Below the pieces are notes generated by a model. The model did no database searches. It saw nothing but the letters and a program-made list of their open reading frames with translations, and had not been told where the DNA came from. 64,000 nucleotides of DNA from the NCBI RefSeq assembly GCF_009914755.1, contig NC_060939.1. One strand, given 5' to 3'. The position numbers and the translations under genes are program-made. Origin of the DNA: the human T2T-CHM13v2.0 reference genome, Homo sapiens. Shown here one piece after another: positions 49,051-50,670 of the stretch (positions are counted from its first letter, which is position 1; each line of letters opens with the position of its first letter).

Positions 49051-50670
49051 TTTTCTTTTTTAAATGGCACAGTGGTTTAATCTCTAGAATCCCAGACAAC
49101 AGATTTGAGGTATTCATTCCTATAGAATTTGGCTGTGCTTCCTACTCTGACCAAAAAGATTCATGTGTTCAGATACAACAAAGCTAGCTTTCTAACTTAC
49201 TAACTTATAATGTATATGCATATGCACATGTCTGTGTCTTCCCTGCCATGTATTTATTCTTCATGCTTGGTTTTCTAGCATTTTCAAGTTTGCAGGAAAA
49301 GTTTCAATACACATTTATTTCTCCAGTCCGCAGTGGAGCAGGTAACACATCCTAAGGAGACAGAGTTTTTTTTGTTTTGTTTTGTTTTGAGATGGGTTCT
49401 CGTTCTGTTGCCAAGGCTGGAGTGATGTGGCATGATCTTGGCTCACTGCAACCTCCGCTTCCCGGGTTCAAGCAATTCTCCTGCCTCAGCCTCCTGAGTA
49501 GCTGGGACTACAGGCACACGCCACCATGCCCGGCTAATTTTTTTTATTTTAGTAGAGACGGGGTTTCATCGTGTTGTCCAGACTGATCTTGAACTCCTGA
49601 GCTCAGGCAATCCACCCGCCTTGGCCTCCTAAAGTGCTGGGATTATAGGCGTGAGCCACAGCGCCCTGACTGAGAGTTGTCGAAATGCTCGCAGGAAGTG
49701 TTTCTGTGTTAAAAAGTTGGGAAGATGGAAACTGAATCCTCCTTGTATTCAGAAGGCTGTTTCGGAAGGTCACTCTTGGCAGGCTTCTCCCTACAGGGAT
49801 TCAGCAGTGAGGGAGCAGAGTATTCGGGGGACAACTGCTTCTTCTGGAGGGGAGAGAATGAGATGGAGTTCACCAGCAGCTCTTTATGTCAGACTTTTAG
49901 CAGGATTCAGCTTTATAAGTAAGCTTGTCGCCTCTGAATATAGGGTCTTCTCATCAACACTCTGAACATTACTGGAAACAAAAAATTTCTTTCCTTCAAC
50001 TTTATCAAGTTGGCTATTTATCCTAACAACAGAACAAAGAGGGATAGGTCTTTTACAACTGATGTTGAGATTGGCAGTCATGACGATTCCCCCAGCCATC
50101 ATTGCACACATACCAACAGTAGCATCAATCATGGTTGCAATGGCACCTCCATGAATCAATCCAGGTGGTCCTTCTAGGTAAGGGACTCCTTGAAATAAGC
50201 AAACCATCCTTTTCTCAACGTCATTGTAGAACATCACGTATTCAAAGCCCAGGCCATCATCAAAGCTTCTGGTGAAGAGCTGGGCCTGTGACACTTGTTC
50301 TTCTTTCATAAGCTTTGGGTCAAGAAAATGGGTTTTAAAGTCTTGAATCCTTTCAGTAGGTGTACGTTTATATGAAGGCAAACGTTTCCAGGAGCCGTCT
50401 TCACATTTCTTCATAAACTGGTCAAAGAGCAGTCTTAGGTCCTTGTTCCAGCTGGGGTTGGGGACAGAATAGTCCTTAAGAATGACTTCCTCAGAAGAAA
50501 ATGACCTCAGCGCGGGTTGCGGCTCACTACCCGGCAGGCACCTGCCTACCGGTGGCGGCTGGCAAAAGGCCCCCAGCGTGCGGAGGCGCCTGGCGCAGCT
50601 CCTCAGCATGGCTCAGGGCCGTGCAGGCCGTGGGGCCGCACTTGCTCTAGCCCTGGATGGCACACATTAC
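49051..50670 (-). pseudogene. Processed THEM4 (acyl-CoA thioesterase / CTMP) retrocopy: 5'UTR, CDS, 3'UTR, poly(A) remnant
   Basis: Intronless. ATTAAA at 49076-49081, A-tail remnant 49051-49061, 14-bp TSD TGCCACATTTTCTT at 49037-49050 and 50671-50684, and a TCTT/AA L1-endonuclease-like site. Confidence 0.95.
49884..50609 (-). CDS. Uninterrupted 241-aa THEM4-like ORF of the retrocopy (expression unknown)
   Basis: [13 protein letters not shown]...LNPAKSLT*, with hotdog-fold motif [16 protein letters not shown] and GAGCCATG start context; no stop codon or frameshift. Confidence 0.55.

What the first reader, a model, noticed from the sequence alone, without database searches (positions are those of the whole stretch)
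49051..50670. THEM4 retrocopy with a full-length open ORF inside DNAAF4 intron 6: candidate retrogene
Seen: an intronless copy with TSD and tail, and a 241-codon ORF from a GAGCCATG start to the natural stop. It keeps the Arg-rich N-terminal leader and the HGG...D hotdog motif. Known: THEM4/CTMP is a mitochondrial acyl-CoA thioesterase also described as an Akt modulator. Against my recollection of the 240-aa parent there are roughly 18 substitutions and one in-frame codon gain, including GG>GV, FIHGG>LIHGG and NINYK>NISCK, yet no disabling lesion. Inference: the copy is in DNAAF4 sense, so it is transcribed in the pre-mRNA wherever DNAAF4 is active, and it has its own poly(A) signals. It could encode a variant thioesterase. 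An open 726-nt frame at this divergence can also survive by chance.
Basis: partly seen in the sequence, partly recalled or inferred. Interest (0 to 1): 0.8.

Follow-up and report, generated by a model that had tools for sequence, protein, structure and literature searches.

The report
THEM4 processed pseudogene, frame open by chance
This is an ordinary retrotransposed copy of the thioesterase gene THEM4 sitting in a DNAAF4 intron; its reading frame is still open, but it has been changing like unconstrained DNA, so it is most likely a dead copy and not a new gene.

Summary
Window 49062-50670 (- strand) is a full-length, intronless copy of the THEM4 mRNA, whose six-exon parent lies on contig C1. 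It has an 11-nt A-rich tail and an exact 14-nt target-site duplication, and it sits inside an older L1 in DNAAF4 intron 6, in the sense orientation.

The retrogene reading is not supported. On the copy's own lineage, coding exons 3-6 changed as fast as its 3'UTR (11-12 of 437 sites against 21 of 814). The parent's coding sequence hardly changed (0-1 of 437 against 24 of 814). Replacement and silent changes (15-16 to 5-6) fit neutrality, with omega between 0.6 and 1.1 depending on method; omega of 0.3 or less is rejected, 0.5 is not. The replacements hit residues that do not vary in 52 mammals (G141, R206) and others kept even in THEM5.

Simulation keeps the frame open in 40-52% of neutral runs. 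Frameshifting indels would lower that to my rough estimate of 6-25%. CpG decay in exon 1 argues against an unmethylated promoter.

RefSeq already lists the locus as a pseudogene. Orthologues, expression and peptides could not be checked.

The parts
50671..50684 (-). 5' copy of the 14-nt target-site duplication (AAGAAAATGTGGCA), preceded by TT, i.e. a TT|AAGAAAA L1-endonuclease-like target
   Evidence: Identical to the 3' copy. Sequence read.
49062..50670 (-). Body of the THEM4 retrocopy: 5'UTR, CDS and 3'UTR of the parental mRNA, without introns
   Evidence: Aligns exon by exon to the six exons on C1. Splice junctions are fused. It ends at the same base as the parental last exon and as the chr12 copy.
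50610..50670 (-). Retrocopy 5'UTR. It carries a new upstream ATG at 50665-50667 that opens a 6-codon uORF ending in TAG at 50647-50649
   Evidence: Read. The parent has no ATG at that place in the alignment.
49884..50609 (-). Open 241-codon ORF (stop included) with a THEM4-like hotdog thioesterase fold
50550..50552 (-). In-frame CCG insertion (extra Pro after parental codon 19). It is the only indel on the chr15 lineage outside the Alu-tail microsatellite
49062..49883 (-). Retrocopy 3'UTR, 94% identical to the parental last exon
   Evidence: (L003 hit, 871 columns, 94.0%).
49367..49681 (-). Alu-like element inside the 3'UTR. The parental 3'UTR and the chr12 copy have it too, so it was copied as part of the mRNA and did not insert later
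   Evidence: The alignment to the parent exon 6 runs continuously through it. There are 76-84% matches to several intronic copies in the THEM4 loci. The name 'Alu' is my own recognition, not a tool result.
49076..49081 (-). ATTAAA poly(A) signal, ending 13 nt before the last transcribed base. Further AATAAA hexamers lie at 49253-49258, 49314-49319 and 49543-49548
49051..49061 (-). Remnant of the poly(A) tail (AAAAAAGAAAA)
   Evidence: The parent genomic sequence continues differently after the cleavage site.
49037..49050 (-). 3' copy of the target-site duplication
50685..51118 (-). Host L1 on the upstream side (ORF2 C-terminal region). The same L1 continues below 49037
   Evidence: The ORF at 50735-51118 matches LINE-1 ORF2p residues 1076-1186 (8sxt, E 3.4e-68). 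Flanks joined with one TSD copy align without a break (positions 1-400) to 3 of 3 other L1 copies tested, at 94.8-96.8%.

Best explanation
This is an L1-mediated processed pseudogene of THEM4. A full-length, fully spliced THEM4 mRNA, polyadenylated at an ATTAAA site, was reverse-transcribed into a TT|AAGAAAA target inside an older L1 in DNAAF4 intron 6. My rough date is 15-30 million years ago, on the catarrhine or ape lineage.

The copy arrived with an intact frame but only the transcribed part of the parent's CpG-rich first exon, so no upstream promoter came with it. It has since accumulated changes at the neutral rate in coding and non-coding parts alike. None of its roughly 21 coding substitutions made a stop, and its one indel was 3 nt long, so the frame is still open by luck.

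Shown here: the anatomy, the parentage, equal rates in CDS and UTR, a neutral N:S ratio, and hits on invariant residues. Inferred: no protein function, the age, and the lack of its own promoter.
For: Anatomy:
- Five fused exon junctions, a tail, an exact 14-nt TSD, and an 'empty site' that aligns contiguously to 3 of 3 other L1 copies.

Rates on the chr15 lineage, from a three-way comparison with the parent and a second retrocopy on C12:
- chr15: CDS exons 3-6 changed at 12 of 437 sites (11 after re-polarising V130I), the 3'UTR at 21 of 814. Fisher p = 0.86-1.
- Parent: 0-1 of 437 against 24 of 814, p = 4e-5 to 4e-4.

Replacement and silent changes on the copy's lineage:
- 16 N to 5 S nucleotide changes by my count, 15 to 6 by Nei-Gojobori.
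- Neutral simulation predicts 14-15 N codons and 5 S codons; 14 and 5 are observed.
- Omega is 0.70 over the whole CDS, and about 0.9-1.1 against a transition- and CpG-weighted expectation of 2.5-2.9:1.
- Omega of 0.3 or less is rejected, p = 0.002-0.05.

Where the replacements fall:
- 5 of the 14 replaced positions are at least 90% conserved in 52 mammalian THEM4 sequences. Random hits would give 39%.
- They include G141 and R206, each invariant in 52 of 52. Position 195 holds only V, M or L in 52 of 52 and is now R. C212 is kept in 49 of 52 and F230 in 48 of 52.
- G141, F150, C212, F230 and a hydrophobic residue at 195 are kept even in the paralogue THEM5.
- As an internal control, the 4 replacements on the human parent's own lineage all lie at variable positions (P = 0.005).

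Chance survival of the frame:
- 40-52% of simulations with 21-25 neutral substitutions keep the start and make no stop.

Promoter:
- CpGs in the exon 1 region fell from 22 in the parent to 13, and 10 of the 20 differences are CpG to TpG/CpA. A methylated, non-promoter sequence would decay this way.

Prior annotation:
- RefSeq already curates the locus as a pseudogene (hub table).
Against: - The frame is complete, with the parental start context and stop.
- The one coding indel is in frame.
- The stretch that holds what I recall as the catalytic residues (His152/Gly153, Asp161, Thr177) is unchanged.
- With only about 21 changes, omega of 0.5 cannot be rejected (p = 0.04-0.32, depending on count and site model). 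The parent itself is not tightly constrained (omega 0.38 from 4 N and 3 S), so the N:S test alone has little power.
- Polarising the changes rests on one other pseudogene and on protein sequences of other primates. Parallel CpG changes blur some sites.
- The sense position in an expressed host gene guarantees presence in pre-mRNA.
- No orthologous copies, population variants, RNA or peptide data could be examined.
Confidence: 0.85

Rival explanations
1. A young, primate-restricted protein-coding retrogene. The copy is transcribed, either riding on DNAAF4 or from a promoter acquired nearby, and is translated into a variant mitochondrial THEM4-like acyl-CoA thioesterase or Akt-binding protein, under weak or recently acquired constraint.
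For: - Complete 241-codon frame with the parental start context.
- Pfam 4HBT above the curated cut-off (36.7 against 20.6 bits).
- The HGG...D...T stretch is identical to the parent.
- The only coding indel is in frame.
- Omega of 0.5 is not excluded.
- Sense orientation in a transcribed host gene (hub table).
Against: - The coding rate equals the UTR rate on this lineage.
- Replacements at G141 and R206 (invariant in 52 of 52), hydrophobic 195 to Arg, C212S and F230L; THEM5 keeps four of these positions, the exception being R206, where it has Q.
- Three of the leader's arginines are lost (R17Q, R23C, R30Q) and one is gained (A7R).
- A new upstream ATG/uORF lies in the 5'UTR.
- CpG decay in the exon 1 region.
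- No upstream promoter was copied; the copy starts at the parental mRNA 5' end.
- No paper in the searched library names the locus.
- The best database protein is the hominoid THEM4 cluster at 91%. No entry was flagged as the window's own protein.
Confidence: 0.06
2. No protein, but an effect at the RNA or DNA level. The sense-oriented poly(A) signals could cause some premature termination of DNAAF4 transcripts. Alternatively a transcript carrying a 3'UTR 94% identical to the parent's could compete for THEM4-targeting microRNAs.
For: - Four poly(A)-signal hexamers in the sense of DNAAF4.
- 3'UTR 94% identical to the parent.
- The GENCODE pseudogene paper counts 520-531 transcribed processed pseudogenes, of 8,248 in all (passages read).
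Against: - The 3'UTR changes at about the same rate as in the chr12 copy and the parent UTR (21, 17 and 24 unique changes in 814 sites), so nothing suggests constraint.
- RefSeq lists no DNAAF4 transcript ending here (hub table).
- No expression data were available.
Confidence: 0.07

Closest known systems
L1-mediated processed pseudogenes of human genes (8,248 in the GENCODE pseudogene resource, PMC3491395, passages read)
   Same: Intronless, a poly(A) remnant at the parent's cleavage site, a 14-nt TSD at a TT|AAAA-like target, a different chromosome from the parent, no parental promoter, neutral divergence.
   Different: The frame has not yet been broken. The copy is full length, not 5'-truncated.
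THEM4 / CTMP (parent gene, C1:150998218-151033009; PDB 4ae8, 4gah)
   Same: 92% protein identity (18 substitutions and one extra codon in 240/241 residues). Same 4HBT hotdog domain. The active-site stretch is identical.
   Different: No introns and no promoter. Invariant residues G141 and R206 and the conserved residues 195, C212 and F230 are replaced. Three leader arginines are lost.
Second THEM4 retrocopy at G000:C12:21886489-21887256 (locus L002)
   Same: Same parent, same 3' end, similar start, and similar lineage-specific divergence (30 against 33 unique changes in 1251 sites).
   Different: It lacks exon 2 exactly (187 nt, which shifts the frame) and has a TAC>TAG stop at codon 127. It was dead on arrival and served here as the control.
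Functional ape retrogenes of mitochondrial enzymes, e.g. GLUD2 (recalled; no call)
   Same: A retrocopy of a mitochondrial enzyme gene, of roughly ape age, with an intact frame and changes in the leader.
   Different: As I recall, such genes show constraint or directional change, orthologous intact frames, and their own expression. None of this is shown here, and the rate tests point the other way.

Membership tests
Processed pseudogene / L1-mediated retrocopy | All parental introns absent, exon junctions fused exactly | tested here: met
   Five junctions are fused. The parental introns have GT...AG at those points.
Processed pseudogene / L1-mediated retrocopy | Poly(A) tail at the parental cleavage site, downstream of a poly(A) signal | tested here: met
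   An 11-nt A-rich tail at 49051-49061, directly after the last base shared with parent exon 6 and with the chr12 copy. ATTAAA lies at 49076-49081.
Processed pseudogene / L1-mediated retrocopy | Target-site duplication flanking the insert, and an uninterrupted target when the insert is removed | tested here: met
   An exact 14-nt TSD. The joined flanks align over positions 1-400 to 3 of 3 other L1 copies at 94.8-96.8%.
Processed pseudogene / L1-mediated retrocopy | Neutral evolution (no coding constraint) | tested here: met
   On the chr15 lineage the CDS changed at 11-12 of 437 sites and the UTR at 21 of 814 (p = 0.86-1). N:S is 15-16 to 5-6, against a neutral expectation of 2.5-3.5:1. Power is limited: omega of 0.5 is not rejected.
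Functional retrogene | Intact full-length ORF | tested here: met
   241 codons, 49884-50609.
Functional retrogene | Purifying selection on the copy's lineage (dN/dS significantly below 1) | tested here: not met
   Omega is 0.6-1.1 by method and not different from 1 (P = 0.31-0.76). Replacements hit invariant sites at the random rate.
Functional retrogene | ORF kept in orthologous copies of other species | not testable with these tools
   No primate genome is held. The own-genome search states that it has no relatives.
Functional retrogene | Own transcription and translation (promoter, processed transcript, peptides) | not testable with these tools
   No expression data. Only indirect signs are available: CpG decay in exon 1, a new uORF, and no paper naming the locus.
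4HBT hotdog-fold acyl-CoA thioesterase, THEM4 subfamily | Match to the Pfam 4HBT domain above the curated cut-off | tested here: met
   PF03061, 36.7 bits against a cut-off of 20.6, residues 150-221.
4HBT hotdog-fold acyl-CoA thioesterase, THEM4 subfamily | Catalytic residues kept (Asp161, Thr177, His152/Gly153 backbone; identities recalled from Zhao et al. 2012, a paper not held) | tested here: met
   The segment from the HGG to the TANLNI stretch is identical to 4ae8/4gah. Which residues are catalytic is recalled, not checked.
4HBT hotdog-fold acyl-CoA thioesterase, THEM4 subfamily | Residues invariant across mammalian THEM4 retained | tested here: not met
   G141V and R206K, each invariant in 52 of 52. 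Also M195R (V/M/L in 52 of 52), C212S (C in 49 of 52) and F230L (F in 48 of 52). THEM5 keeps G141, F150, C212 and F230.

The most novel reading that the evidence does not exclude
The copy is an ape-restricted retrogene caught early. It would be transcribed in ciliated tissues and testis by riding on DNAAF4, and translated into a THEM4 variant with an altered leader and altered surroundings of the active site (G141V, N183S/Y184C, M195R). Constraint would be too weak or too recent to show in 21 substitutions.
Probability: 0.06. Interest if true: 0.45.

Novelty: already known. Interest (0 to 1): 0.12.

Why it matters
It matters little. The locus is already curated in RefSeq as a THEM4 pseudogene, and the tests here give no reason to promote it to a gene.

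Three things are of practical use:

- Open frames in processed pseudogenes of this age are expected by chance, and should not by themselves trigger retrogene claims.
- The copy is 92% identical to THEM4 at the protein level and 94-98% at the DNA level outside exon 1. Reads, probes and peptides for THEM4 can therefore cross-map to it.
- The RefSeq span (49587-50670) stops inside the Alu, whereas the copy runs to 49062.

If the frame did prove to be translated, it would be one more ape-specific mitochondrial-enzyme retrogene. That would be of moderate interest.

Tried and rejected
- **Literature on the locus:** THEM4+retrocopy gave 0 papers. THEM4P1 or LOC100420711 gave 0 papers. 'THEM4 pseudogene', 'THEM4P' or 'member 4 pseudogene' gave 8 papers, none about this locus; the single 'THEM4P' hit was 'THEM4_prot'. 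One search was rejected for an over-long term and was re-sent.
- **Catalytic residues from print:** Zhao 2012 (PMC4066673), Zhuravleva 2012 (PMC3416193) and Zhao 2009 (PMC2803014) are not held. The 2024 CTMP review does not give them in the passages returned. Their identity is therefore recalled.
- **Pfam on the two flanking L1 ORFs:** 0 families. The L1 identity came from the PDB sequence search instead.
- **Rfam on 48500-51200:** 0 matches at gathering scores.
- **Empty-site test inside the window:** no other copy of that L1 region is present (both also with wrong TSD coordinates by 13 and 1 nt). It was repeated correctly against genome copies.
- **Later Alu insertion considered and rejected:** the Alu in the 3'UTR is present in the parent and in the chr12 copy too.
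- **Positive selection considered and rejected:** 16:5 is not above the neutral expectation (P = 0.42-0.69).
- **The chr12 copy as a simple outgroup:** its own N:S of 5:7 and its ancestral states at R16 and V151 suggest it is somewhat older, or that CpG sites changed in parallel. I therefore re-polarised four codons using primate proteins.
- **Structure and complex prediction:** not run, because they cannot tell the effect of point substitutions.

Full report
**What is there**

On the minus strand, window 49884-50609 holds a 241-codon ORF that starts in GAGCCATG.
- It carries a Pfam 4HBT hotdog domain (E 5.3e-09, 36.7 bits against a cut-off of 20.6).
- It matches the solved human THEM4 chains 4ae8 and 4gah at E 7.9e-129 and 1.3e-126.

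A search of the window's own assembly found three places with this sequence.
- The six-exon parent is at C1:150998218-151033009 (-).
- The locus itself is the second.
- The third is another intronless copy at C12:21886489-21887256.

**Anatomy**

I aligned the copy to the parental loci.
- All five exon junctions are fused exactly where the parent has GT...AG introns.
- The copy starts at the same place as the chr12 copy, to within a base or two. It ends at the very base where parent exon 6 and the chr12 copy end, 13 nt after an ATTAAA.
- The Alu-like element in the 3'UTR (about 49367-49681) is present in the parent's last exon and in the chr12 copy. It was therefore copied as part of the mRNA.
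- The body of the copy is thus 49062-50670. The RefSeq pseudogene span 49587-50670 stops inside the Alu.
- After the body comes an 11-nt A-rich tail (49051-49061).
- The whole is flanked by an exact 14-nt direct repeat, at 50671-50684 and 49037-49050. The upstream copy of the repeat is preceded by TT.
- The flanks belong to one older L1. The ORF just upstream (50735-51118) matches LINE-1 ORF2p residues 1076-1186 (8sxt, E 3.4e-68).
- The two flanks, joined with one repeat copy, align without a break over positions 1-400 to 3 of 3 other L1 copies, at 94.8-96.8%.

By the hub's table the site lies between DNAAF4 exons at 57469-57614 and 46723-46832. That is intron 6, on the same strand as DNAAF4.

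**Comparison with the parent**

Codon by codon there are 18 replacement codons (20 nucleotide changes), 8 silent codons and one extra CCG codon at 50550-50552. The stretch from HGG to TANLNI is unchanged. It holds what I recall as the catalytic residues; the papers that define them were not held.

**Who changed, the copy or the parent?**

I used two sources to assign the changes to a lineage.

The first was the chr12 copy as a third sequence.
- In the 3'UTR (814 sites) the unique changes are 24 (parent), 21 (chr15) and 17 (chr12).
- In coding exons 3-6 (437 sites) they are 0, 12 and 13.

The second was THEM4 proteins of 12 other species: 11 primates and a tree shrew. At A32, Y46, R86 and V130 the copy keeps the ancestral residue, and the human parent is the one that changed. 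After this correction the copy's own lineage has:
- 14 replaced residues (16 nucleotide changes);
- one inserted codon;
- 5 silent changes, or 15:6 by Nei-Gojobori path counting.

**Is the frame under selection?**

Three tests all point to no detectable constraint.

1. *Rate.* On the chr15 lineage the coding sequence changed as fast as its own UTR: 11-12 of 437 against 21 of 814, Fisher p = 0.86-1. It also changed as fast as the chr12 copy, which is dead. The parent's coding sequence is 6-10 times slower than its UTR: 0-1 of 437 against 24 of 814, p = 4e-5 to 4e-4.
2. *N:S ratio.* A neutral mutation model on the inferred ancestral CDS gives a missense:silent ratio of 2.5-3.3. Simulation predicts 14-15 replaced and 5 silent codons; 14 and 5 are observed. 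Nei-Gojobori omega is 0.70 for the whole CDS and 0.59 for codons 37-240. That method undercounts silent sites when transitions dominate, and here transitions outnumber transversions 14 to 7. Omega of 1 is not rejected. Omega of 0.3 or less is rejected (p = 0.002-0.05). Omega of 0.5 is not rejected (p = 0.04-0.32). Because the parent itself shows omega of about 0.38, from only 4 N and 3 S, this test alone is weak.
3. *Where the replacements fall.* I compared with 52 mammalian THEM4 sequences, chosen from the 120 listed as mostly near-full-length and named. I left out partial sequences, sequences flagged low quality, most unnamed sequences and duplicate isoforms.
   - The copy's replacements hit positions that are at least 90% conserved in 5 of 14 cases, against a background of 39%.
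   - They include G141 and R206, both invariant in 52 of 52.
   - Position 195 holds only V, M or L and is now Arg.
   - C212 is kept in 49 of 52 and F230 in 48 of 52.
   - THEM5, the roughly 40%-identical paralogue, keeps G141, F150, C212, F230 and a valine at 195.
   - By contrast, the four replacements on the human parent's lineage all lie at variable positions (P = 0.005).

**Could the open frame be luck?**

Yes.
- With 21-25 neutral substitutions the start is kept and no stop arises in 40-52% of simulations.
- Outside the Alu-tail microsatellite I count four indel events over the three lineages. One is on chr15, and it is the in-frame CCG.
- From this local indel rate, or from a higher ratio of about one indel per eight substitutions that I recall, I estimate the chance of escaping a frameshift at about 0.5 or about 0.12. 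These figures are my arithmetic, not a tool result.
- The overall chance is therefore roughly 6-25%. Among the 8,248 processed pseudogenes counted by GENCODE (PMC3491395, passages read) that is unremarkable.

**Signs bearing on expression (indirect only)**

- The copy begins at the mRNA 5' end, so it has no upstream promoter.
- The exon 1 region lost CpGs, from 22 in the parent to 13, and 10 of its 20 differences are CpG to TpG/CpA. This suggests germline methylation and not an active CpG-island promoter.
- A new ATG at 50665-50667 opens a 6-codon uORF ahead of the main start.
- Being in the sense of DNAAF4, the sequence will be present in DNAAF4 pre-mRNA. That is not evidence of a processed transcript.
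- No paper in the searched library names the locus. Supplements and expression atlases were not searched.

**Age**

The chr15-lineage divergence is 33 of 1251 sites, or 2.6% (95% interval 1.8-3.7%). At non-CpG sites it is 25 of 1197, or 2.1% (1.35-3.1%). With a neutral rate of about 1e-9 per site per year, which I recall, this gives very roughly 15-30 million years.

The copy's AGG at codon 195 derives from the catarrhine ATG, not from the valine found in other primates. It also shares the ape Thr in 'PTE' and the great-ape Ile151. This hints at an origin on the ape stem, but CpG parallelism makes it uncertain. No other primate genome could be searched.

**Verdict**

This is a textbook L1-mediated processed pseudogene, already curated as such. 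It happens still to have an open frame. The retrogene idea is not excluded, but the evidence obtainable here disfavours it. I put the pseudogene reading at 0.85, a coding retrogene at about 0.06, and an RNA-level or host-gene effect at about 0.07.

Noticed in passing
L002 (G000:C12:21886489-21887256, + strand): A second THEM4 retrocopy lacks exon 2 exactly (187 nt), so it derives from an exon-2-skipped, frame-shifted transcript. It also has TAC>TAG at parental codon 127 and its own poly(A) run. It shares the same 3' end as the chr15 copy, which marks that ATTAAA site as a real germline poly(A) site of THEM4.
   Followed up: partly
L003-L008 (parent THEM4 on G000:C1), compared with window 49884-50609: The human parent carries four derived residues (E32, C46, W86, I130) where the retrocopy and most other primates keep A, Y, R and V. 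It also has a 9-nt deletion in the 5'UTR relative to both retrocopies. The pseudogene thus preserves older THEM4 states.
   Followed up: partly
window 49062-49586: The RefSeq pseudogene span (49587-50670) ends inside the Alu of the 3'UTR. The homology to the parental last exon continues for a further 525 nt, to the poly(A) tail at 49061.
   Followed up: yes
window 50647-50667 (-): A new upstream ATG with a 6-codon uORF in the retrocopy's 5'UTR. It was created by changes at a parental CpG-rich stretch, and the parent has no ATG there.
   Followed up: no
window 50482-50781 (+): A 99-codon ORF antisense to the retrocopy's exon 1 region that runs into the L1 flank. It has no further support and is most likely chance in GC-rich sequence.
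   Followed up: no
window 50735-51118 (-): Residues 14-53 of the L1 ORF2 fragment also match a PDB chain labelled cilia- and flagella-associated protein 61 (9d2f_J, residues 287-326, E 1.4e-10). This suggests an L1-derived segment in that modelled chain.
   Followed up: no
window 50671-50830 and genome-wide: The host L1 flank has at least 40 copies at 94-98% identity in the assembly (40 of 178 candidates were scored). The host L1 is therefore not much older than the retrocopy it received.
   Followed up: partly
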